64,000 nt of DNA from Cyanidioschyzon merolae (taxonomy: Eukaryota). Of the stretch, positions 47,928 to 59,743 are shown one piece after another. The stretch lies in the NCBI GenBank assembly GCA_000091205.1, contig AP006498.2. One strand, written 5' to 3'. The number at the start of each line of letters is the position of its first letter. The stretch's first letter is position 1. The notes beneath the pieces are model-generated. The model did not search any database. It was not told where the DNA came from and saw nothing but the letters and a program-made list of their open reading frames with translations. The position numbers and the translations under genes were made by a program.

Positions 47928-49857
47928 ATGTCGCGTCCCAGATACCTCACGAGCGAGGAGCCAAGCCCGCATGCATCGCCAGTGCAGCCGGCTAGGGTAC
48001 GAAAGGCGCAGTTATCGTCGCCGCTTTGGGAGCACGCGTGCCCGCAGGCATTGCCCGAAGAGTCGATGCTGTCTCTTGGCCAAAAGCGAGCTCTTGGGGA
48101 TCGACACGCTTACCATCGAGCTTTTGACGATGCTTGGCAGCGTCCCGGTCCCCGAGAGCGATCGACTTCAGAGCCGCTGCTCATGGGAGTCGACGCCTTT
48201 GTCTCGGGCGACTTGAAATTCAGCACTGCTGCGGAGGTTCCGCTGGACAGGTCTGCCGCCCATTGGAACCCGGACTCGACACCACTCCCGGGTCGATCGT
48301 TTGATGGGGCGTGCCTCCAGCAGACGGACTTTTCCAACTGGTACGCTGATGAGCCGAACTCATCCCTGATGATTCACGATGAATGCTTTGACACATCCGC
48401 AATCGATGGAGAAACGTATTCGGACTCGACATCGGGCGGGGTAGACGTGCGTCCGGAGCGGCCACCTTTCGCTTCTCCGCTGAGCGAAACCGACGATACG
48501 ACGGAGGATAGGCCGCTGGTACACCCAATTAGGGAGTCGACGAGCGCTTGCCTGTGCCAGTATCGCATAGAATTCATGTGTGAGGCGTGCGTCTCTCGCG
48601 CTGGGAATGCGGACGGGGTAGTATCCGCCAGCCCGAGTGATTCCGAAAACGACCACTGCAGATTGCCAGAGCAATGCCCAATAGAACGGCCTGATGCCTG
48701 CTGTGGTCTCGGAACAACTGAAGCAGCAGGCAGCAGTAATGATCAAACACAGGTATCGACTGCGCAGCATGCGTCGGGCAATGCAGAGCGCTCCTCATCT
48801 GACACTCAACACGAGCGGCGATGTGAGGTATGCACATCATGCACCATGCAACGAGCGAGTCAGTGTGCGCACCATGCACAGTCAAGCGTCGTATGCCCTC
48901 TTTCCACTGGGGAACGTAGTTCACGGGATTCCGGGCTCAGTTCACTAAGGAATGTTCCCGCAGCGTCCGGCGATGCGCCTCCTCTTCGGAGCAGTGTCGC
49001 GGATGCAAGTGCGTACGACGCACGTCCGGAGGATCGAGATGCAGCTTGCATGGCGCTGCTTCCAGGTTATGGAGGCACGAACTCCGCGGCACAAGAACAA
49101 ACCCGAAACGGATTTCCACTAGATAGGCATCTGGACTGCACTGCAGCGGAGACGCTGGTTGGCTCTGGGCGGCGTCGTAGTCTTGCTGCGGCAAACGCGT
49201 TCCGATCCCTGCTTCAAGGTCGGCAGCTGCCCAGCCGAACAACGCAGCGATGCAGCGCGGCACATGAGCCGTCCGATCTCATGGACACCGAGTCGGGTTG
49301 TGATGACTCGACATCCAACGCATCGTCACCGCCATCGTCGTCGATAGTCGCGAGAGGCAGCATGTTCTCATCAGACGCGAGTACCTTTCCTGCGGATGAT
49401 GGTGCGAAACGCTCGCATCATTTGCCTTCAGCGAACTCGCCACCCGGCTCGTGTTCATCGAGTGACTCCATTGGGGCGCTACGCTCAGCGCCCATGCGAG
49501 ACGCTTCTGCTGAAAGAGCACAGCAGAGCGCCCGGCGACAACGGGAGCCGCGTGGACCTCCAGATGAGCAAGCAGCAGGTGCATTGGTGACTTGTGCACA
49601 CCTGTCGCAAATCGACACAACGCAGGCCTGGTCGGCGCCAATCGGCGAGTCCGGATGCGCCCTAGTCAAGTCAGCGACGCCGTTGTGTACGCACGACCTT
49701 GCGCCGGTAGACGGCGCTTGTGGTGTCGATGCTGCACACGAGAAACCAGCGCCTCTGCTGCACCTTGTTGACTCGAAGCAAACTGCAGCGTACTCGAGCG
49801 GTGCCTGGGATTCATCTGCTTCCTATGATGTGAGCAAAGACGACGACAACGACGACG

Positions 49858-49888
<31 letters not shown>

Positions 49889-52406
49889 AATGCGCTGGAC
49901 GCTGGAGCACCATCAGCGGATGCAGCAAACGGCGCTGTCGCCTTCTGCGGCCGTTCTGGACCACACCACGTCCATTGAGCTGCGTCTTGCGTTGGAGCAG
50001 GACGTTCCAGTCTCCGGACGGGCGCAGGTCAACAACGCAGATCGCGGTGATGCACCAGTATCCAGGTGTGGGCTACGCGGTGTCGGCGCTTGGCACGCTG
50101 TGGACACGACCGCCTGCAAAGCAACCTTTCCAAGTGTCCACGAACCTGCTTTTCCGCGTACAGATCAACCCTCAGACTCGGAGGATGCGTCGGGTCCACG
50201 TTCGCTCAAATGGTGCCGTACCACCACCATTGCGGATCCCGGTGATGGGAGTGGTTTGCGAGCGGACTCGCGCAGCGCCTCGAATGCGCCTACGCTACTA
50301 GTTGAAGGTGACACGAGCCACGTGACTGCCGGCTCGGGCAAAGTACCCTGTTCGGCTGCAGTCGCTCCAGGAATCGCGGACTGCTTGGCACCGACAAAGT
50401 CCTCGGAGACGCTCCCAGAGCATCGCCGAGATCGCAAGCATGCGCTACGAAAAGGCCAAAGCGTCTGGAGGCGGACCAGGTCTGCAGTAGCTCGTTCGTT
50501 CGAACACGCCGTTCAGAGTGTGCAAAGAGCAGCAAAACGCGCTTCGGGCCCCGGCGCTTGTACCCATCCGAGCGGAGCAAGACCCCAGGCCGCGGATCGG
50601 TGCCCAGAGAGCGTCTCCGTCGCCAGCAACACGGCCGTGAAACAGACTGCGCAGGGGTTTACGGATCTGTCGCTGGAACAGTCTTTGTATGATCGCTTGG
50701 CAGCGGACTTGGAGCGGACCATCGAACGGCTCAAGGCTCCTGTGGTGGCAAATGCGGTAGCTGCGGATCGACCGCTAGCCAAGGCCCCAAAACAGCATGC
50801 ACACCATTTTGGTTTGCACATGTTCGAGCAACTTCGCGGACACTCGTTCGCTTGCCGACGACGAAAAGCCGCGACACGTCCTGGTCCCAGCGAGACTGCT
50901 GCAGATGCTGGGGCTGCAAGCGCATGCCTGCCGGCCGCAGATGCCACGGACTTGTTTCGAGCAGCGGACTGGGACAACGACGCTGTGCCAGCAGCAGCAG
51001 CAGCAGCATCACAGACGGAAGCCTTATTCGCGGTAGCAACGTGTGCGGATGGATTCGCGGTATCCTTCAGGGCACTTGACAGGCGCCTGGAGCGCGAGGG
51101 CCTAGCCGCAGGCGCAACCTCGGATGCAGCGCGACTACCATGCAACTGGGTCAAGAATCGCTACGCTGATATTCTCCCTTTCGATCGGACGCGGGTTCGC
51201 TTGCTGGAGGTGCAGTCCGCGGCCGCTGGTGGGCCGCCCTGGCTCCCCGCCACCGACTACATCAACGCCAGCTGGATACGGGGAGCGATCCCCGAGAGTC
51301 GGCGCTTCGCCTACATCGCAACGCAGGCACCGCGTGCCAACCATGAAAGCGAACGAGACTTTTGGCACATGATCGCCGAACAACGAGTGCCCTGTATCGT
51401 GATGCTTACGCGCACCATGGAACAGGGGCGAGAGAAATGCGCTCCATACATGCGAACCGGGGTATTCGGGGCCTATCAGCTGCGAATCGTTCGGGAGTAC
51501 CACTGGCGTGTGGAGGGCGCGTGCTCAGCCTGGTGCCTGCAACCGCCGTGTGCTTCAGTGCAAAGCGATGCGAACGCTGCGGTATTGGCGGCTATACGCG
51601 ACGCGGAAACGACGACACCGTTGATTGTTCGCGTGATAGAGCTTCAACGCGTGCGACCGCTCAACCAGAAGCGGGATGCAGCTAGCACCCAGAGCACCGT
51701 CTCGCTGCCGCTGGAGCGCATCGGGGATCGATGGCGACTCGTCCAGCTGCAGTATACGGCGTGGCCGGATCACGGGGTCCCGCAGTCGGTGGTGCCGCTC
51801 CTGCAGCTCGTCGATCTCGTGAACGATGCCCGGACGCTCTACGGAGCTAGCCAGGCGGCCATGTTGGATCGACTCCGTGGCAACCTCGACGCCAGAGAGC
51901 GTTTGTTAACGGTTAGCTTGCAGGAGCGGGGCACAGCGATGGGGCCGTGTTCGCAAGCAGCAGCGGCAGCAGCTGGTGCTGGTGCTGGACCAGTCGGAGA
52001 CTCAGCGCCGCTGGTACGCTCGGCCAGCCGGACTCGATACGGCCCTGTCGTGGTACACTGCAGTGCAGGTATTGGCCGCACGGGTACATGGATCGCGCTC
52101 CATTTGCTTCTGGAGAAACTGAAACACGGTGATGGGCCGGCACCCGGCGAAACCTTCGCTGACTTTACAGCCCAGACGGTGCTGCAGTTGCGTGCACAGC
52201 GCATGGGTATGGTTCAGACCGCAGCCCAGTATCGTCTGCTGCACGAAGCGTGCTTGCTGGGCTTGCGGCGTGACTCGCAGCCGTTGATCAAACTGCCACC
52301 GGATGAGGACTTGTTTGCGGAGGCATCGACGAGGTCTCAGATGACTGCAGCAGATCGGGCGGGCGCGTTCCCTGCTCCGCAACATGACGACAGTGTCAGT
52401 CGCTGA
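47928..52406 (+). CDS. Large protein with a C-terminal classical protein tyrosine phosphatase (PTP) domain and an ~1100-aa low-complexity N-terminal region.
   Basis: PTP motifs in order: NRYADILPFDRTRVRL (NRYxDIxPxDxxRV), WPDHGVP (WPD loop), VVHCSAGIGRTGTWIAL (the HCx5R active site), and QTAAQYRLL (Q loop). The N-terminal 1100 aa are S/A-rich with poly-Ala. Confidence 0.8.
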
Positions 52407-52515: not shown

Positions 52516-53073
52516 TCAACGACGCCGTGGGTCATACTCACCAACAAAATCATCCCCGTCATCCTGCTTCGAAGACCAGCTAATGAAGAGTACCAGCATC
52601 GTGATGAAGACACCGAGCAGCACGATGAGCAGACGTGAGTCGTCGATTCCAAGCGGCTCACCGGTGCCGTCGGTGGCCCAGGCGGCAGACCCCAGGGTCA
52701 TCCATGAGGTTAGCGTGGTCACAGCGCTAACGGGCACTGCCTGCCAGCCTGCCGGCAGCCGTGCGCGCTCTTGTTTCGTACTATGCAGCGCACACTGAAG
52801 ACGCGCGGGAACTCGCCTTGCCGCCACAGCAAGCTTAAGCGTTGTGCCGCTGGTGCTAGTGCCCGCTGAAACCGGTCCCCGAACGAGACCCAGCGGAGAA
52901 ACGAAAGCACAGTTGACCATGGATAGTATATAGCGAAAAACTCGAGAAGGGCTTGTTCTTGTAACTGGACTAGGTGTGCTTAGGCACGTTCCAAAGGCAA
53001 GCACACGAGCAACACGTGCTCCGTGTTGAAACTGTACCGATGCGTGCTCTCCGACGATCGCCGCCGAGCTCAC
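52516..53073 (-). CDS. Hypothetical protein with a single C-terminal transmembrane helix (tail-anchored topology).
   Basis: 185-aa ORF. The hydrophobic stretch LLIVLLGVFITMLVLFISW lies near the C-terminus, followed by acidic KQDDGDDFVGEYD. No family was recognised. Confidence 0.3.
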   Translation of the reverse strand: MSSAAIVGEHASVQFQHGARVARVLAFGTCLSTPSPVTRTSPSRVFRYILSMVNCAFVSPLGLVRGPVSAGTSTSGTTLKLAVAARRVPARLQCALHSTKQERARLPAGWQAVPVSAVTTLTSWMTLGSAAWATDGTGEPLGIDDSRLLIVLLGVFITMLVLFISWSSKQDDGDDFVGEYDPRRR

Positions 53074-53213: not shown

Positions 53214-54075
53214 GCTATCGGCATGATTATGGGTAATTTTATATACACAATTGGTCTATACGGTCGTGCGTAGCAGAAGACATCCAGGGTCGCATCCGAT
53301 GCACAGAAGCGCTATCGGCATGATTATGGGTAATTTTATATACACAATTGGTCTATACGGTCGTGCGTAGCAGAAGACATCCAGGGTCGCATCCGATGCA
53401 CAGAAGCGCTATCGACATGATTATGGGTAATTTTATATACACAATTGGTCTATACGGTCGTGCGTAGCAGAAGACATCCAGGGTCGCATCCGATGCACAG
53501 AAGCGCTATCGGCATGATTATGGGTAATTTTATATACACAATTGGTCTATACGGTCGTGCGTAGCAGAAGACATCCAGGGTCGCATCCGATGCACAGAAG
53601 CGCTATCGGCATGATTATGGGTAATTTTATATACATAATTGGTCTATACGGTCGTGCGTAGCAGAAGACATCCAGGGTCGCATCCGATGCACAGAAGCGC
53701 TATCGGCATGATTATGGGTAATTTTATATACATAATTGGTCTATACGGTCGTGCGTAGCAGAAGACATCCAGGGTCGCATCCGATGCACAGAAGCGCTAT
53801 CGGCATGATTATGGGTAATTTTATATACATAATTGGTCTATACGGTCGTGCGTAGCAGAAGACATCCAGGGTCGCATCCGATGCACAGAAGCGCTATCGA
53901 CATGATTATGGGTAATTTTATATACATAATTGGTCTATACGGTCGTGTGTAGCAGATGGCATCCAGGGTCGCATCCGATGCACAGAAGCGCTATCGACAT
54001 GATTATAGGTAATTTTATATACATAATTGGTCTATACGGTCGTGCGTAGCAGAAGACATCCAGGGTCGCAGCGTC
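53214..54075. repeat. 97-bp tandem minisatellite, about 8.9 units, directly upstream of the histidine-kinase ORF.
   Basis: Unit gctatcggcatgattatgggtaattttatatacacaattggtctatacggtcgtgcgtagcagaagacatccagggtcgcatccgatgcacagaagc. Unit starts are at 53214, 53311, 53408, 53505, 53602, 53699, 53796, 53893 and 53990, an exact 97-bp period. Units differ only by cac/cat and ggca/gaca variants. Each unit carries TTTTATATACA and the palindrome GCATCCGATGC. Confidence 0.92.
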
Positions 54076-54209: not shown

Positions 54210-55847
54210 ATGGACGTTGCCTGCGCACCATACAGAACACAGTCGCTTGGATGGGGCATCCTAGCGACGCCTGCACTTGGCGAAAAACCTCGCTGTGTCA
54301 AACTGCGGCGCGAAACCACGCCTTGGCCGTCCCTGCGTAGACACTGGCCTGGCTGTCTGCGACACGGCACGAAGCCGCTGTCGAGGGACATCGGTCTGCT
54401 GGATGCGGTGCATTTGTACCTTAGATCGAATGTACAGCTGCGTGGAGGCGCTGCCGCTGGGGGTCCGTCCAGCTGTTGCATGAGCGCAGACTCGCCAGCA
54501 CAGCACCAGCGACGGTGGAAGCGCCCTGGGCAAACGTCCGGAAAGCGTCGCCCGCGCAAGTCTTTGACTTCACCAGACAGCGAGCGTGCTACAAACGAGG
54601 AGGAGCAGTCAACACCGAGGCAAGCGGACACAACGCGAAAATCGCCCTCTGGTAGTGCAGCACTAGCGGTAAAGTCGCAGCCACCGACAGCGACGACGGA
54701 GAGCACCATTCCGCAGTGCTCGCGCGAGTTCATCGAACTCTGTCGCGTACAGTTCGAAGTACTTGCGAGTGTCCTCGGCGTAACTCGTTGTGCACTGTGC
54801 GTACGGCGCGAAGCACCCGACGGTGCCCTAGAGTTTGTGCCGCTCTGTGTATATCCCGAGTCGCAGTGTGTCTGGGTGGTTGGCGCAGCGCCTGGCTCTC
54901 GTCCGCCGGTAGGCCCAGCGGCACTGCCGGGTGGCGTCGCCGCTGGACGACTGCTCCCCGAGTACCCTTTTATTGACCTGAACGCTGACACTGCAATGCC
55001 CTTGACTGACGGGGGATTATCGGCGCCACTCCTTGATGGGAATACCGTGCTCGGAATCTTGGTCGTTTGGCGCGATCACGGAACCGATTCAACGCCGAAG
55101 CCACGAATACTGCCCGAAGAACCCTCGCACTGGACCATGGACGAGCGTGTGCGACTCGTTTCAATTGCGAAGACGCTTGCACTAGCGCTCGTACTGGACC
55201 AGCGTCATCGGCACAAGGCGTCTGGTGCATCACAGGCGTCAACGCGAGCTGTGGTGTCATCATCACCGACGAATGACGGTGACATGCAAGAGGTAGGCTC
55301 CAGATGCGAGCCCCGTGCCTCAGCCGAAGCGCCACCGCATTCGCATGCCGACCCGTTGGCTCCAGCGTCAGCGCGAGAACCGAAGGCCCCGACAGGTGAG
55401 CGAACGTCGCTGAAGCGCAACCGCCGGAAGCGCACGGAGAACAGCGCCCAGCTGCCTGCGTCGGAAACGCTTGCGCACTGGGTTGACACGCGAGTACTGT
55501 CCAGTCATGAGCGCCAAACTTGGGGCTCTGCGCAGGCTCGGGAGAGCGCCATGATCGCACAAATTCGCGACGTACTCAGCAATATCCTGCACCAAGCGAA
55601 AAGCCCAATCACGGCTTTGCGCACCTTTGGAAAGTTACTTCTGCGTCGACTGCCCCCCGGTGATGTGAATCGAGACCTGGCCCGTGATATCATTGTACAG
55701 TGTGAGCGACTGAATGAACTCTTATCGCCGTTGGACACTGTGACCTTGCAGGTTGCCCAGTTGCCACCAGCGAAGGATATCGATCGTGTTTCGCCAGCTG
55801 CGGCCTCAAAGAACGCACGCCCGTGGCCAAGGTCGATGCCGCACCCG

Positions 55848-55883
<36 letters not shown>

Positions 55884-56945
55884 GCGGCAACGTATGCGCT
55901 ACCAGGCAGGATGTTGCCACCGCCGCCACGCTCCTTGCTGCTCCCGGCACCAGGAACAAATGCACAGGACGCAGTAGTGACACCAAGCAATACCAATGAT
56001 GATGATGATGATGAGCTACTCCATAGTAGGAGTAGCGCCCTCGAGAACGGCAGACTACACCTCTGTTGGATGAACGACATCGTGCGCCCGCTGCTCGGTA
56101 CTGCAACTGCGCTGGCCATGGAGCACGGCGTTGAGCTGCGCGCGCGCCTTGATCAGGTACCTGCGATTCTCGCCGATGCCTTTGCGCTTCGTGAGGCAAT
56201 CAGTAACGTGCTCGAGAACGCTATCAAGTATACGGGCACGGTACAACCTGGCGCTCGGGGTCGCCTTGTCCTCCTCTGGATCCAACTCGTATCCCTGAAT
56301 GCAGGCAGAGATCGCAGCGCGGGTGAAATCACGGAACTGCGCCCCCTGGAAGCAGTGCCTGGTGGTACCTTCGATGCAGAGGAGCCGCAGGCACACGACG
56401 ATCTTGCAGTGGCCCTGTTCGTCGGGGATACCGGTCCGGGTATCCCTCGTGGTGAACTGGAACGAATTTGGGAGCGCGGTTATCGAGGACGTCGCGCTCG
56501 GCAGGACAGCGCTGCAGAGCGCGCGAGTTTGGAAGCAGGCTCCGCTGGAGCAGAGAATCGCGAGAACTCGCCTATCTCGTTACCGTCAACATCGAGACGG
56601 ATGCAGTCGGGCGCATCCGACACTGACTCAGCGCAGCATGGATTAGGACTCTACTTGACGCGCCAGCTCGTAGAGCGTATGGGCGGTATGGTCATTCTAC
56701 AGAGTCCGTGGCCGCAATCAGAGCGAGCGCGTTCACCACCCGGTATCAGTGGGACCACAAACGATGCCCAGTGGGCGACACACATCCTTCCGCAGAACGC
56801 ACCGCCCCTTGAGGAGATGCACGTCTACGTCAACGCACCGGCAGCGGATTCAACGACTCGAACGGGGCAGCGAGCACATCGTCGAGGGACCCTCGTTGGT
56901 ATTGTGTTTCAGCGAGCAATATCGGCTGGAACGCCCGCTTCATAG
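54210..56945 (+). CDS. Nuclear-encoded sensor histidine kinase with an N-terminal GAF-like region, an H-box and a HATPase_c domain (cyanobacterial Hik2 / chloroplast sensor kinase-like).
   Basis: H box ILHQAKSPITALRTFGKLL (compare sHELRTPL). N box ISNVLENAIKYTG. G1 LFVGDTGPGIPRGELERIWERGYRG. G2 HGLGLYLTRQLVERMGGMVILQS. The GAF-like segment is ELCRVQFEVLASVLGVTRCALCVRREAPDGALEFVPLCVYPE. The ORF also has poly-Thr (T x13) and poly-Asp runs and a long basic N-terminal presequence. Confidence 0.72.
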
Positions 56946-57406: not shown

Positions 57407-59743
57407 CTAGTGACCGGACGACGTCGGTGCACCATTACCCGCATGATGATCATCTTCTTCATCAAAATCATCATCATCATGAGTATCCGTTTGTCTGGTT
57501 TGCTGTGCTGCCTGGTAGAATGTAAACGTTTGGAGAACTTGCCGCTGAAAAACAGCCTTTGTCTGTAGTCCTGTCACCTTGTCATGCTTTTTCAAGATCT
57601 TTTCGAAGCCGGTTGCATTCAGTTCGATAAAATTCACCAGTTCCATGATTTCGACGTAGTGCTCTCGATACCGTTGACGGAGGAGCGCGAGTCGCTGCTG
57701 GTCTTGACGTCGCAGGGAGGCCTCGGCATCGACGGCGAGCGCTTGCGAGATGCGCTCGAGCTCTCGCTCCATGGCGCAAAAGAAAGCGTCTACCTTGACA
57801 GCTTCGATATGGAGGCGCTCGAAGAAGCGACGTTCCATTCGCCAAAAGGCCTCCCGATGCGATTGAGCCCATTGCTCGCTCGACATGAGCGGTGTGCTGG
57901 GTAGCGCACCGTTCCAAGGCTGCGCTCTCATCGTCGGGTTCCGAGACGCAAGTGTGGATCGTTGCGGCACTGCGACTACGGGCGCTGCGAGCGGGCTCGA
58001 GTATGCCAGTGTATGAGTCGTCTCGGCGGTTTGAAAACGAGACGGTGGCCTCTTATTGCAGCAAGCTCCCGGAGGCGTCTCGTTACGATCCTGTGCAGGA
58101 GGTGTTCTGGGTGGAATGATTTCCCCCAGGAGCGGGGTGCGCTCGTGCACGGGCTTGCTCCGTACAGCCGATGCTGGGTAGCACGCTGGCGACGCCCTGT
58201 CAGAGCCAACAGACGTTCGCGGACTCGTGCCTGGTGCATCGCGTCTAGCGGAAGCGTCTTCTCGCAGTGCGGCGCCCGGAAGCGGCCTCGCGAGTTGCAG
58301 CGGTGGCGGTGCTGCGGACGAGCAGGCATTGGCGGACCGCTCAGGCGCCGCCGCAAAATAGTCGCTGGGTGCATGACGCGGTGCACCGTGCTCTAGTTCG
58401 TAGAGCACATTCGCACTGGCCGTTTTCCGGAGCGCTGGAGCCAGTCGAGCGCTACGACTCTCGCGACGCTCGATCGCAGCAGCGCTGGTGTCCCCCGTGC
58501 TGGCCAATGGCGATGCTAACGGTCGTGGATAAGTATCCGTATGCATCGCTGGCGTTAGATTCAACGCAGTAACGTGTGCATCTGCTGCTCGTGCTGTTCC
58601 CGCTGCGTGAGCATCTTGATGAACACTCGGCGACGCAGCCTCGTCTTCCGCAGGTGCCGTCTGCGCACCATTCAGAGGTACGCGTGCGGCTGGGCACGGT
58701 GCGTCGCGGTGCCCTGCATTTTCTCCAGCGCTCGGGAAACCTCTCAGAGAATCAGGTACGCATCCCGTAACCGAGAAGCTGTGCTGTGAACGCAACGCGT
58801 TGCCACCCGGGTCACCAATGTGGTCGTCGTCGTCGTCGTCGTCGTCATCGCTTTCATCATCATCATCATCATGATCGTCATTATCGTTATCGTTCTTGGT
58901 AACGGTGTTGCGGTTGCGAGTCCTGCTGTCATTTGCGGCGCTAGCGCCCCCGGAGGATGCCATGTCCGCGACCCGCAAACGTTCCGCGTGATCCTCCACC
59001 CATCCAGGCGATTCTGAGACCTGCGATACCCCCGAGGGCATTCTGGTTGCTCCCCGTGCAGATTCGCTGCAATCGCCCGGTGAAGCAGACCGAGGTTCCA
59101 CTGCGGTGCTCGCTTGCGCAGATATCCCGCCCGACACCTGTTTCTCGTTTCCAATGGCGTGCATCCACACACTAGCCCGCGTGCGCTGCTCGATATCCTC
59201 CGAGCCAGCAGAGATAACCGACACGCGGGCCAGACGGGCTCGCTCCTGCTCTGTCGCGTGGTGTTCGAGTCCTGTGCTTGGCGCGCTGGCCGCGTCTGAA
59301 GGAAGACGCTCGAATTTAGCGTCCGTCTGAGCATGGGGTGCAGCACCAGCGCCATCAGCTGTTTCTGGTGCTAATGCTACTGCCTCCGCACCCCAGGAAC
59401 CGTGTTCCACAGGGGAACGGAGCGGGGCTATTCTTGCTGTCGCTCTCGCATGTAGCGTATCCACTTCAATTTCCTCCTCTGGGGGCGGACTCGACACCGA
59501 AGCAGTGGAAGACGAAGCACCCCGTCCACAGACCGCGTCTCCACGAATCCATATAGCTAGCGTAACTTCACGAAGCGGTGAACAGCTCATGGCGGGATCA
59601 CCGGCCCCGTACTTGCGGAGCTGCTGTCGCACACTGCCCAGTCGGGAGATATATTTTTTCAACTCGCTATAATCAAGATAGTGCTCCCGCCACTCTGCAA
59701 CTGCATTGTACATGAGCTGCTTTGAGAACTTCATGGTACTCAA
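57407..59743 (-). CDS. SPX-domain protein whose SPX domain is split by a ~550-aa low-complexity insert including a poly-Asp run.
   Basis: The N-terminus MKFSKQLMYNAVAEWREHYLDYSELKKYI is the canonical SPX start (MKFgk.L.......W...YidYk.LKk.I). The C-terminal SPX segments are ...FERLHIEAVKVDAFF...YREHYVEIMELVNFIELNATGFEKILKKHDK. The insert contains DDHDDDDDESDDDDDDDDD. Confidence 0.72.
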   Translation of the reverse strand: MSTMKFSKQLMYNAVAEWREHYLDYSELKKYISRLGSVRQQLRKYGAGDPAMSCSPLREVTLAIWIRGDAVCGRGASSSTASVSSPPPEEEIEVDTLHARATARIAPLRSPVEHGSWGAEAVALAPETADGAGAAPHAQTDAKFERLPSDAASAPSTGLEHHATEQERARLARVSVISAGSEDIEQRTRASVWMHAIGNEKQVSGGISAQASTAVEPRSASPGDCSESARGATRMPSGVSQVSESPGWVEDHAERLRVADMASSGGASAANDSRTRNRNTVTKNDNDNDDHDDDDDESDDDDDDDDDHIGDPGGNALRSQHSFSVTGCVPDSLRGFPSAGENAGHRDAPCPAARVPLNGAQTAPAEDEAASPSVHQDAHAAGTARAADAHVTALNLTPAMHTDTYPRPLASPLASTGDTSAAAIERRESRSARLAPALRKTASANVLYELEHGAPRHAPSDYFAAAPERSANACSSAAPPPLQLARPLPGAALREDASARRDAPGTSPRTSVGSDRASPACYPASAVRSKPVHERTPLLGEIIPPRTPPAQDRNETPPGACCNKRPPSRFQTAETTHTLAYSSPLAAPVVAVPQRSTLASRNPTMRAQPWNGALPSTPLMSSEQWAQSHREAFWRMERRFFERLHIEAVKVDAFFCAMERELERISQALAVDAEASLRRQDQQRLALLRQRYREHYVEIMELVNFIELNATGFEKILKKHDKVTGLQTKAVFQRQVLQTFTFYQAAQQTRQTDTHDDDDFDEEDDHHAGNGAPTSSGH

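What the first reader, a model, noticed from the sequence alone, without database searches (positions are those of the whole stretch)
54210..56945. Nuclear gene for a GAF-containing sensor histidine kinase with an intact H-box (Hik2 / chloroplast-sensor-kinase-like) and a long basic presequence
Canonical two-component histidine kinases are rare in algal nuclear genomes. Those that occur are usually of cyanobacterial (plastid-endosymbiont) origin and plastid-targeted.

This ORF has all the catalytic boxes: H (HQAKSPITAL), N, G1 and G2. It also has a GAF-like N-terminal sensor and an Arg/Ser-rich N-terminal extension typical of organelle transit peptides. The conserved His is retained, unlike in land-plant CSK.

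If the genome is red-algal, this kinase would coexist with the plastid-encoded ycf26-type kinase. That would give two redox/sensor kinases of separate ancestry.
Basis: partly seen in the sequence, partly recalled or inferred. Interest (0 to 1): 0.5.

Follow-up and report, generated by a model that had tools for sequence, protein, structure and literature searches.

The report
Known red-algal chloroplast sensor kinase gene

Summary
The 911-codon ORF at 54210..56945 (+) is real. It encodes an N-terminal extension, a GAF domain, a DHp/HisKA domain with an intact His, and an HATPase_c domain with N, G1, F and G2 boxes. It has no receiver domain and no membrane segment.

The window is Cyanidioschyzon merolae 10D nuclear DNA: the neighbouring ORF is an exact match to BAM81692.1.

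The closest prokaryotic relatives are all cyanobacterial proteins of about 440 aa. They start exactly where the algal GAF domain starts and carry the published landmarks of Synechocystis Hik2. In a kinase-core tree, the algal and cyanobacterial proteins separate from 29 generic kinases with bootstrap 97.

The literature already describes this gene as the only histidine kinase of C. merolae (CmHIK, CmeroHK1, C. merolae CSK) and notes its oversized ATP lid.

Published plastid-genome surveys report ycf26 absent from C. merolae; ycf27 and ycf29 are present.

Plastid targeting and redox sensing are inferred, not shown.

Verdict: correct identification, already known, low interest.

Side observations: a 97-bp x 8.8 tandem array lies just upstream, and a PsbW gene lies divergently next to it.

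The parts
54210..56945 (+). Complete CSK/CmHIK coding sequence, 911 codons plus stop, with no intron needed
   Evidence: ORF list. 99% identical to metagenome protein P0001 and 57% identical to the Cyanidiococcus orthologue. Synteny is conserved in Cyanidiococcus.
54210..54707 (+). N-terminal extension, residues 1-166. It is basic and Ser/Thr-rich, and is a putative plastid presequence plus a disordered spacer.
   Evidence: Absent from all cyanobacterial orthologues, which start at the S-x-E-F-x-x-L-C motif. pI 10.5. Only 16-20% identical among Cyanidiales, although the first residues M-x-x-x-C-x-x-(Y/A)-(R/W)-(T/S) line up with the Cyanidiococcus start codon. Targeting itself was not tested.
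54708..55220 (+). GAF sensor domain, residues 167-337
54741..54743 (+). Codon for Cys178, the counterpart of Synechocystis Hik2 Cys19 (the Fe-S cluster ligand)
   Evidence: Cys178 lies in the motif EFIELC-RVQ and is nearly invariant in alignments A1 and A2. The Hik2 C19S primer spells L-I-S-L-C-Q-S-Q-V. C19S lowers both Fe and S content in Hik2 (PMC6949291).
54789..54791 (+). Codon for Cys194, the counterpart of Hik2 Cys35. The spacing of 16 residues from Cys178 equals the C19-C35 spacing.
   Evidence: Alignment A2. The C35S primer spells V-D-W-C-G-V-Y-L. The third Hik2 cysteine, C153 (LAVAC-LLDQ), is Leu327 here.
55221..55526 (+). Lineage-specific low-complexity linker between GAF and DHp, residues 338-439
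   Evidence: No counterpart in cyanobacterial or stramenopile-type orthologues. 5-20% identity among Cyanidiales.
55527..55772 (+). DHp / HisKA dimerisation and phosphoacceptor domain, residues 440-521
   Evidence: Pfam HisKA E=1.6e-5. Modelled as a helical hairpin with pLDDT up to 92. 85-87% identical to Cyanidiococcus. The motif LHQxxxPxxALRTFGKLLL is shared with cyanobacterial Hik2-type proteins.
55590..55592 (+). Codon for His461, the predicted autophosphorylation site and counterpart of Hik2 His185
   Evidence: Invariant in A1 and A2. The cyanobacterial orthologues have this His at position 163-268, most at 183-198. His185 is the published Hik2 site (PMC4751278).
55773..56042 (+). Disordered insertion between DHp and CA, residues 522-611. 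It includes a poly-Thr run (ACA x12, 55848..55883) and a poly-Asp run (55996..56014).
   Evidence: Tandem repeat finder. pLDDT about 30. The run lengths differ between the window and the 99% relative P0001.
56043..56942 (+). Catalytic ATP-binding (CA, HATPase_c) domain, residues 612-911, interrupted by lineage-specific loops. Box coordinates: N 56202..56234, G1 56427..56444, F 56466..56489, G2 56640..56657.
   Evidence: Pfam HATPase_c E=5.1e-11. Motif positions. Conserved parts are modelled at pLDDT above 80. Foldseek matches DHp-CA kinases.
56499..56618 (+). Insertion of about 40 residues in the ATP lid, between the F and G2 boxes (residues 764-803)
   Evidence: Present only in the Cyanidiales-type orthologues. 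Low pLDDT. Already noted in the literature as an unusually large ATP lid in C. merolae CSK (PMC5054060).
56700..56876 (+). C-terminal insertion between G2 and the last beta-strand, residues 831-889. It is moderately conserved among Cyanidiales.
   Evidence: 51-56% identical to Cyanidiococcus, higher than the other insertions. It expands the short 'SPxxxx' loop of cyanobacterial Hik2-type proteins.

Best explanation
The ORF is the nuclear gene for the Cyanidioschyzon merolae chloroplast sensor kinase, known as CSK, CmHIK or CmeroHK1. It is the red-algal orthologue of cyanobacterial histidine kinase 2 (Hik2).

**Shown here.** The protein is a soluble, non-hybrid class-I histidine kinase with a GAF domain, a DHp domain and a CA domain. 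All catalytic motifs are intact. It aligns collinearly with cyanobacterial Hik2-type proteins from their first residue. It carries an added N-terminal extension of 166 residues. About 320 further residues are disordered, lineage-specific insertions.

**Inferred from work on Hik2 and on Arabidopsis and Phaeodactylum CSK.**
1. After import into the plastid, the GAF domain holds a redox-active [3Fe-4S] cluster, ligated in part by Cys178 (the counterpart of Hik2 Cys19).
2. [quoted passage not shown]
3. Reduced plastoquinone suppresses autophosphorylation on His461.
4. The phosphoryl group passes to the plastid-encoded response regulator Ycf29 (the Rre1 homologue) and perhaps to Ycf27.
5. These regulators then adjust transcription of plastid photosynthesis and phycobilisome genes.
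For: **Organism and nuclear context.** The neighbouring ORF is an exact match to C. merolae 10D BAM81692.1 / XP_005537728.1 on a 908,485-bp contig. The neighbours are a Y_phosphatase protein and an SPX protein. The order PTP, PsbW, HK, SPX is conserved in Cyanidiococcus.

**Domains.**

**Cyanobacterial origin.**
- Of 206 confirmed loci in the scan of one genome per species (185,579 bacterial and archaeal species), the best 80 are kept. 75 are titled as cyanobacteria and 5 only as 'uncultured bacterium'. Matches span query residues 170-850.
- Those proteins are 414-623 aa long. They begin at the S-x-E-F-x-x-L-C motif, and most have the His at 183-198. This fits published Hik2: 49 kDa, C19, C35, C153, H185 (PMC4751278, PMC6949291).
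- The Hik2 mutagenesis primers spell the same local motifs.

**Separation from other kinases.**
- A family profile scores members at 209 bits or more and generic kinases at 119 bits or less.
- A neighbour-joining tree of the kinase core puts the algal and cyanobacterial proteins in one clade against 29 generic or hybrid kinases, with bootstrap 97.

**Purifying selection on the functional parts.** Identity to the Cyanidiococcus proteins is 71-73% in GAF, 85-87% in DHp and 78-87% in the CA blocks. In most insertions it is 12-23%; CA insert 1 (36-48%) and the C-terminal insertion (51-56%) are higher.

**Literature.**
- This is the single HK of C. merolae and it belongs to the CSK group (PMC6324907, PMC3539659, PMC2677595, PMC3012001).
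- ycf27 and ycf29 are encoded in the C. merolae plastid genome (PMC2677595, PMC8504449).
- Hik2 transfers phosphate preferentially to Rre1 and RppA (PMC4751278).
- CSK and Hik2 bind a [3Fe-4S] cluster (PMC6949291).
Against: - Nothing here shows plastid localisation, Fe-S binding, kinase activity or the identity of the response regulator in C. merolae. All of these are transferred from Synechocystis, Phaeodactylum and Arabidopsis.
- The 166-residue extension is much longer than a usual transit peptide. Its first residues lack the Phe seen near the start of the neighbouring PsbW presequence (MVNCAFVS).
- The third Hik2 cysteine, C153, is Leu here.
- The ATP lid carries an insertion of about 40 residues that could alter catalysis.
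- The HisKA and GAF Pfam scores are below the curated cut-offs.
- My tree is a simple distance tree. It contains no plant CSK or ycf26 sequences.
- In vitro, Hik2 did not favour RpaB, the Ycf27 homologue (PMC4751278).
Confidence: 0.9

Rival explanations
1. The protein is a Hik2-derived kinase that no longer acts through His-Asp phosphotransfer. Instead it works as plant CSK does, phosphorylating or binding non-response-regulator partners such as sigma factors to control the plastid RNA polymerase.
For: Plant CSK interacts with SIG1 and PTK rather than with a response regulator (PMC3012001). The Cyanidiales proteins carry a greatly enlarged ATP lid and other insertions, making up about 53% of the residues, which could signal rewired function.
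Against: The phosphoacceptor His and the whole H-box are invariant across algal and cyanobacterial members. The loss of His in the green lineage goes together with the loss of ycf29, whereas C. merolae keeps ycf29 and ycf27 in its plastid genome and lacks PTK (PMC3012001 table 1). The DHp domain is the most conserved part of the protein, at 85-87%.
Confidence: 0.07
2. The kinase is not plastid-targeted. It acts in the cytosol or nucleus, and the basic N-terminal region is simply disordered sequence or a different targeting or regulatory signal.
For: The extension is 166 residues long and poorly conserved, at 16-20% identity. It has no Phe near the N-terminus, unlike the adjacent PsbW presequence. 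No localisation prediction or experimental data could be obtained here.
Against: The only response regulators reported in C. merolae are plastid-encoded (PMC3539659, PMC2677595), so a cytosolic kinase would have no partner. Every eukaryotic orthologue has an N-terminal extension, while cyanobacterial ones have none. The more distant Cyanidiales-type orthologue P0004 begins MERAMDGAWAFVTVSG, which resembles the PsbW presequence motif AFVS. CSK is chloroplast-located in other lineages (PMC2677595, PMC6949291).
Confidence: 0.03

Closest known systems
Cyanidioschyzon merolae CSK (also called CmHIK or CmeroHK1), as described in PMC2677595, PMC3012001, PMC3539659, PMC6324907 and PMC5054060
   Same: Same organism, shown by the exact match of the neighbouring gene to strain 10D. 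It is the only histidine kinase reported in that genome. Same features as published: an N-terminal GAF domain, a retained His, nuclear location and an unusually long G1-G2 ATP lid.
   Different: Nothing substantive differs. The exact 911-aa product and an 821-aa product starting at Met91 were not found by exact look-up in the protein collection. I therefore could not confirm the deposited gene model or the locus tag.
Cyanobacterial Hik2 (Synechocystis slr1147 and its orthologues across cyanobacteria)
   Same: The GAF-DHp-CA architecture is collinear from the first residue of the bacterial protein. The motifs S-x-E-F-x-x-L-C (the Fe-S ligand Cys) and LHQxxxPxxALRTFGKLL (H-box), and the N, G1, F and G2 boxes, are shared. 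Neither has membrane segments or a receiver domain.
   Different: Pairwise identity over the aligned core is only about 26-36%. The algal protein is about twice as long: 424 of 911 residues align. It has a 166-residue N-terminal extension and five or more disordered insertions. Hik2 Cys153 is Leu here. The gene sits in a eukaryotic nucleus.
Land-plant and green-algal CSK (Arabidopsis At1g67840)
   Same: Same evolutionary family according to published phylogenies (PMC3012001, PMC6324907). Both are nuclear-encoded GAF-containing kinases thought to sense plastoquinone redox state.
   Different: Green-lineage CSK has lost the phosphoacceptor His and its response-regulator partner. This protein keeps His461, and its genome keeps plastid ycf29 and ycf27. 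I made no direct sequence comparison with plant CSK here.
Plastid-encoded ycf26 (Tsg1 / DspA / Hik33-type kinase) of other red algae
   Same: Both are bacterial-type histidine kinases proposed to regulate plastid genes through Ycf27 or Ycf29.
   Different: This protein shows no HAMP or PAS domain and no membrane segment, and it is nuclear-encoded. ycf26 is reported absent from the C. merolae plastid genome (PMC2677595, PMC1885438), so the two do not coexist in this organism.

Membership tests
CSK / Hik2 sensor kinases | N-terminal GAF sensor domain | tested here: met
CSK / Hik2 sensor kinases | Conserved GAF cysteine equivalent to Hik2 Cys19, the Fe-S ligand | tested here: met
   Cys178 lies in EFIELC, is nearly invariant in A1 and A2, and matches the L-I-S-L-C-Q-S-Q-V context of the Hik2 C19S primer.
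CSK / Hik2 sensor kinases | Binds a redox-active [3Fe-4S] cluster and responds to plastoquinone | not testable with these tools
   Known for Synechocystis, Phaeodactylum and Arabidopsis proteins (PMC6949291). No data exist for the C. merolae protein.
CSK / Hik2 sensor kinases | DHp/HisKA domain with the phosphoacceptor His (canonical form found in cyanobacteria and non-green algae) | tested here: met
   HisKA E=1.6e-5, 25.3 bits against a cut-off of 26.9. His461 is invariant and the LHQ...ALRTFGKLLL motif is shared with cyanobacterial orthologues. A helical hairpin is modelled.
CSK / Hik2 sensor kinases | HATPase_c domain with N, G1, F and G2 boxes | tested here: met
   HATPase_c E=5.1e-11, above the cut-off. 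Boxes located. Fold matches DHp-CA kinases.
CSK / Hik2 sensor kinases | Soluble: no transmembrane helices | tested here: met
   The maximum 19-residue Kyte-Doolittle mean is 1.6, and it falls inside a confidently modelled GAF helix. This is a crude test only.
CSK / Hik2 sensor kinases | Groups with cyanobacterial Hik2 to the exclusion of other histidine kinases | tested here: met
   Of the 80 best prokaryotic loci, 75 are titled as cyanobacteria and 5 only as 'uncultured bacterium'. Profile score gap of 209 bits or more against 119 or less. NJ bootstrap 97 against 29 generic kinases. Plant CSK and ycf26 were not in the tree.
CSK / Hik2 sensor kinases | Located in the plastid (for eukaryotic members) | not testable with these tools
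   Evidence is indirect only: the N-terminal extension is absent from cyanobacterial orthologues, it is basic in composition, and the response regulators are plastid-encoded (literature).
CSK / Hik2 sensor kinases | Cognate response regulator Ycf29 (Rre1) present in the same organism | not tested
   The plastid genome is not in the window. The literature reports ycf27 and ycf29 in the C. merolae plastid genome (PMC2677595, PMC3012001, PMC8504449).
ycf26 / Hik33-type plastid kinases | Membrane anchor plus HAMP and PAS domains; plastid-encoded | tested here: not met
   No HAMP or PAS hit at E up to 1. No hydrophobic segment. The gene lies between eukaryotic nuclear genes.
Eukaryotic hybrid histidine kinases | C-terminal receiver (Response_reg) domain fused to the kinase | tested here: not met
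   No Response_reg hit. The protein ends 21 residues after the last CA strand. It separates from hybrid kinases in the core tree.

The most novel reading that the evidence does not exclude
About half of the protein consists of Cyanidiales-specific insertions. These might not be mere disordered filler. The candidates are the moderately conserved 59-residue insertion after the G2 box and the enlarged ATP lid. They could form a lineage-specific regulatory or docking module that changes how the kinase is controlled. Separately, the 97-bp x 8.8 tandem array in the spacer shared with the divergently oriented PsbW gene could be a regulatory element that couples expression of a photosystem II subunit to that of the plastid redox sensor.
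Probability: 0.1. Interest if true: 0.35.

Novelty: already known. Interest (0 to 1): 0.12.

Why it matters
The gene matters as the simplest eukaryotic example of a complete, ancestral chloroplast two-component system: one nuclear kinase and two plastid-encoded regulators, in a genetically tractable alga. That point is already in the literature. This analysis adds independent confirmation of the assignment and a residue-level map: Cys178, Cys194, His461, the catalytic boxes and the insertions. It also corrects the idea that the kinase coexists with ycf26 in this species. Localisation, the Fe-S cluster, phosphotransfer partners and the knockout phenotype do not appear in the papers I could search, so those experiments may still be worth doing.

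Tried and rejected
**Searches that gave nothing useful.**
- Exact-sequence look-ups of the 911-aa product, of an 821-aa product starting at Met91, and of the neighbouring phosphatase in the contig index all returned nothing. I therefore could not recover the deposited gene model or locus tag. Only the cluster look-up of the phosphatase worked.
- The profile search with alignment A2 returned no cyanobacterial or plant proteins. I think this is because the list of 8000 word-sharing candidates was filled by other sequences. It still showed a clear score gap between the family and generic kinases.
- NCBIfam gave only fragmentary hits to generic kinase equivalogs (CreC, PhoR and others), far below their cut-offs. 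No Hik2-specific model matched.
- The PDB sequence search gave only weak partial matches.
- The original CSK paper (PMC2474565) is not held. The supplements of PMC6324907 are not held.
- The alignment figure of PMC6949291 is an image. Its primer table, however, gave the Hik2 sequence context around C19, C35 and C153.

**Ideas considered and rejected.**
- Bacterial contaminant or recent horizontal transfer: rejected because of the eukaryotic neighbours, the synteny conserved across genera and the composition matching the window.
- Hybrid kinase: rejected because there is no receiver domain.
- ycf26-type kinase: rejected because there is no HAMP, PAS or membrane segment.
- Antisense ORFs overlapping the gene: these are the usual by-product of GC-rich coding sequence and have no support.
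- No tRNA or Rfam family occurs anywhere in the window.
Full report
**1. What is in the sequence**

A single uninterrupted ORF runs from 54210 to 56945 on the + strand and encodes 911 aa. An in-frame TAA lies two codons upstream of the ATG, so the reading frame cannot be extended 5'.

Pfam results:
- HATPase_c: E=5.1e-11, above the curated cut-off.
- HisKA: E=1.6e-5, 25.3 bits, just below the cut-off of 26.9.
- GAF: E=0.028, a weak match.
- No receiver, HAMP or PAS domain at E up to 1.

The H-box HQAKSPITAL starts at His461. The N box is at 665-675, G1 (DTGPGI) at 740-745, F at 753-760 and G2 (GLGLYL) at 811-816.

A model of residues 440-911 has a confident DHp helical hairpin and CA domain, interrupted by low-confidence loops. 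It matches solved DHp-CA kinases such as ZraS, CckA and HK853.

No membrane segment is evident.

**2. Which genome this is**

The ORF immediately upstream (47928..52403) is identical to C. merolae strain 10D protein BAM81692.1 / XP_005537728.1, on a 908,485-bp contig. It is a protein tyrosine phosphatase. The downstream gene on the opposite strand is an SPX-domain protein.

The kinase itself is 99% identical to proteins from JGI metagenomes. It is 57% identical to Cyanidiococcus yangmingshanensis proteins KAK4530825.1 and KAF6003740.1.

In Cyanidiococcus the gene order phosphatase (+), PsbW (-), kinase (+), SPX (-) is the same. The gene is therefore a resident nuclear gene of Cyanidioschyzon merolae, not a contaminant.

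**3. Family assignment**

The 12 homologues from the first search all share a conserved block that starts at residue 167 or so (S-x-E-F-x-x-L-C). All have unrelated N-terminal extensions of various lengths.

I scanned one genome for each of 185,579 bacterial and archaeal species with patterns from this alignment. This gave 206 confirmed relatives. Of the 80 best, 75 are titled as cyanobacteria and 5 only as 'uncultured bacterium'. Matches span query residues 170-850.

The cyanobacterial proteins are 414-623 aa long (most 440-480). They begin directly at the S-x-E-F-x-x-L-C motif, and most have their H-box His at position 183-198. These are the published landmarks of Synechocystis Hik2: 49 kDa, Cys19, Cys35, Cys153 and His185 (PMC4751278, PMC6949291).

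The site-directed mutagenesis primers in the supplement of PMC6949291 spell out the local Hik2 sequence. Aligned to the window protein, they give:

| Hik2 residue | Primer context | Window context | Window residue |
|---|---|---|---|
| Cys19 | L-I-S-L-C19-Q-S-Q-V | EFIELC178RVQF | Cys178 |
| Cys35 | V-D-W-C35-G-V-Y-L | VTRC194ALCV | Cys194 |
| Cys153 | L-A-V-A-C153-L-L-D-Q | LALAL327VLDQ | Leu327 |

So Cys178 corresponds to the one cysteine whose replacement lowers both Fe and S in Hik2. Cys194 corresponds to Cys35. Cys153 is not conserved.

A profile of the family scores members at 209 bits or more and unrelated kinases at 119 bits or less.

A neighbour-joining tree of the kinase core used 231 columns, 28 family members and 29 generic or hybrid kinases. 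It recovers these splits:
- algal plus cyanobacterial clade, bootstrap 97;
- eukaryotic subclade, bootstrap 97;
- Cyanidiales-type subclade, bootstrap 91.

Neither is met.

**4. Anatomy beyond the conserved core**

Only 424 of the 911 residues align with cyanobacterial Hik2-type proteins. The rest breaks down as follows:

| Segment | Residues |
|---|---|
| N-terminal extension | 1-166 |
| Linker between GAF and DHp | 338-439 |
| Insertion between DHp and CA, with poly-Thr and poly-Asp runs | 522-611 |
| Two loops in the CA domain, the second inside the ATP lid | 680-729 and 764-803 |
| Insertion before the last strand | 831-889 |

These assignments rest.

Identity to the Cyanidiococcus proteins is 71-73% in GAF, 85-87% in DHp and 78-87% in the CA blocks. 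It is 12-23% in most insertions, 36-48% in the first CA loop and 51-56% in the C-terminal insertion. Selection is thus acting on the kinase and sensor parts.

The N-terminal extension is basic: pI 10.5, 27 K+R against 13 D+E, and 32 S+T in 165 residues. It is poorly conserved. Its first residues nevertheless line up with the annotated start of the Cyanidiococcus protein, which supports Met1 as the start.

**5. How it most likely works**

The architecture, the motifs and the cyanobacterial ancestry are shown here. The remaining steps are inferred from experiments on homologues:
- Hik2 autophosphorylates on His185 and transfers phosphate preferentially to Rre1 and RppA (PMC4751278).
- Hik2 and the Phaeodactylum and Arabidopsis CSKs hold a redox-responsive [3Fe-4S] cluster in the GAF region. 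Reduced plastoquinone suppresses autokinase activity (PMC6949291).
- In C. merolae the only reported response regulators are the plastid-encoded Ycf27 and Ycf29 (PMC3539659, PMC2677595, PMC8504449). Ycf29 is the Rre1 homologue (PMC4751278, PMC3012001).

The most likely mechanism has five steps:
1. The protein is imported into the plastid by means of the N-terminal extension.
2. The GAF domain, with its Fe-S cluster, senses the plastoquinone redox state.
3. The kinase autophosphorylates on His461.
4. The phosphate is transferred to Ycf29 and possibly to Ycf27.
5. These regulators adjust transcription of plastid photosynthesis genes.

Localisation, cofactor binding, activity and partner choice were not testable here. 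I found no paper reporting them for the C. merolae protein.

**6. Comparison with what is known, and novelty**

The gene is already in the literature:
- It is the single histidine kinase of C. merolae (CmHIK, PMC3539659; CmeroHK1 in the CSK group, PMC6324907).
- It is the red-algal CSK in published CSK phylogenies, with a retained His and nuclear location (PMC2677595, PMC3012001).
- It has an unusually large region between G1 and G2 (PMC5054060).
- Its transcript is reported to rise transiently after a shift to high light (cited in PMC2677595).

ycf26 is reported absent from the C. merolae plastid genome, and CSK is proposed to have taken its place (PMC2677595, PMC1885438).

The finding is therefore a correct identification of an already known gene.

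**7. Rival readings**

- *A plant-like, response-regulator-independent mode of action.* This is unlikely because the His and the DHp domain are the most conserved parts, and ycf29 is retained.
- *A non-plastid location.* This cannot be excluded with these tools. It would, however, leave the kinase without any known partner.
- *Contamination or recent transfer.* This is excluded by the genomic context and the conserved synteny.

**8. Things seen in passing**

- A near-perfect tandem array of a 97-bp unit (8.8 copies, 98% matches) occupies 53214..54070 and ends 140 bp upstream of the start codon.
- The array lies in the spacer between the kinase gene and a divergently oriented PsbW gene at 52516..52920 on the minus strand.
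- A 99% identical metagenome contig begins inside the last repeat unit, as expected if assembly broke at the array.
- The Cyanidiococcus spacer has an unrelated 64-bp x 2.6 repeat.
- The poly-Thr and poly-Asp runs differ in length between the window and the metagenome relative.

Noticed in passing
window 53214..54070: A tandem array of a 97-bp unit, 8.8 copies with 98% matches, ends 140 bp upstream of the kinase start codon. The unit occurs nowhere else in the window. A 99%-identical metagenome contig (L081) starts inside the last unit, which suggests assembly broke at the array in a related strain. The Cyanidiococcus spacer (L082 5704..5873) has an unrelated 64-bp x 2.6 repeat at the same place. 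Function is unknown; it may be a promoter or spacer element.
   Followed up: partly
window 52516..52920 (-), within ORF 52516..53073: A PsbW-like photosystem II subunit gene (Pfam PsbW E=2.7e-9) is oriented divergently from the kinase gene. It is 57% identical to the 132-aa Cyanidiococcus gene at the syntenic position. Its presequence starts MVNCAFVS, with the Phe-containing motif I recall as typical of red-algal transit peptides. A photosystem subunit gene and the plastid redox-sensor kinase gene thus share one spacer in both genera.
   Followed up: partly
window 55848..55883 and 55996..56014: Codon repeats inside the kinase gene: ACA x12 (poly-Thr) and GAT x6 (poly-Asp). The run lengths differ between the window and the 99% relative P0001, which has fewer Thr and one more Asp. 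These are polymorphic microsatellites within a disordered insertion.
   Followed up: partly
window 56700..56876 (residues 831-889): The C-terminal insertion between the G2 box and the last strand is 51-56% identical between Cyanidioschyzon and Cyanidiococcus, against 12-23% for most other insertions. A short version (SPLPQ...) occurs in another algal orthologue (P0014) and as 'SPxxxx' in cyanobacterial Hik2-type proteins. It may be more than filler.
   Followed up: no
window 47928..52406 (+) and 57407..59743 (-): The flanking genes are a 1492-aa protein with a C-terminal tyrosine-phosphatase domain, annotated only as 'hypothetical protein, conserved' in strain 10D, and an SPX-domain protein with long acidic and low-complexity inserts. 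As with the kinase, large parts of both are low-complexity sequence.
   Followed up: no
window 54210..56942: Neither the 911-aa product nor an 821-aa product starting at Met91 is present by exact match in the protein collection, although the neighbouring strain 10D protein is. The deposited gene model for this kinase may differ in its start codon or in repeat length.
   Followed up: partly
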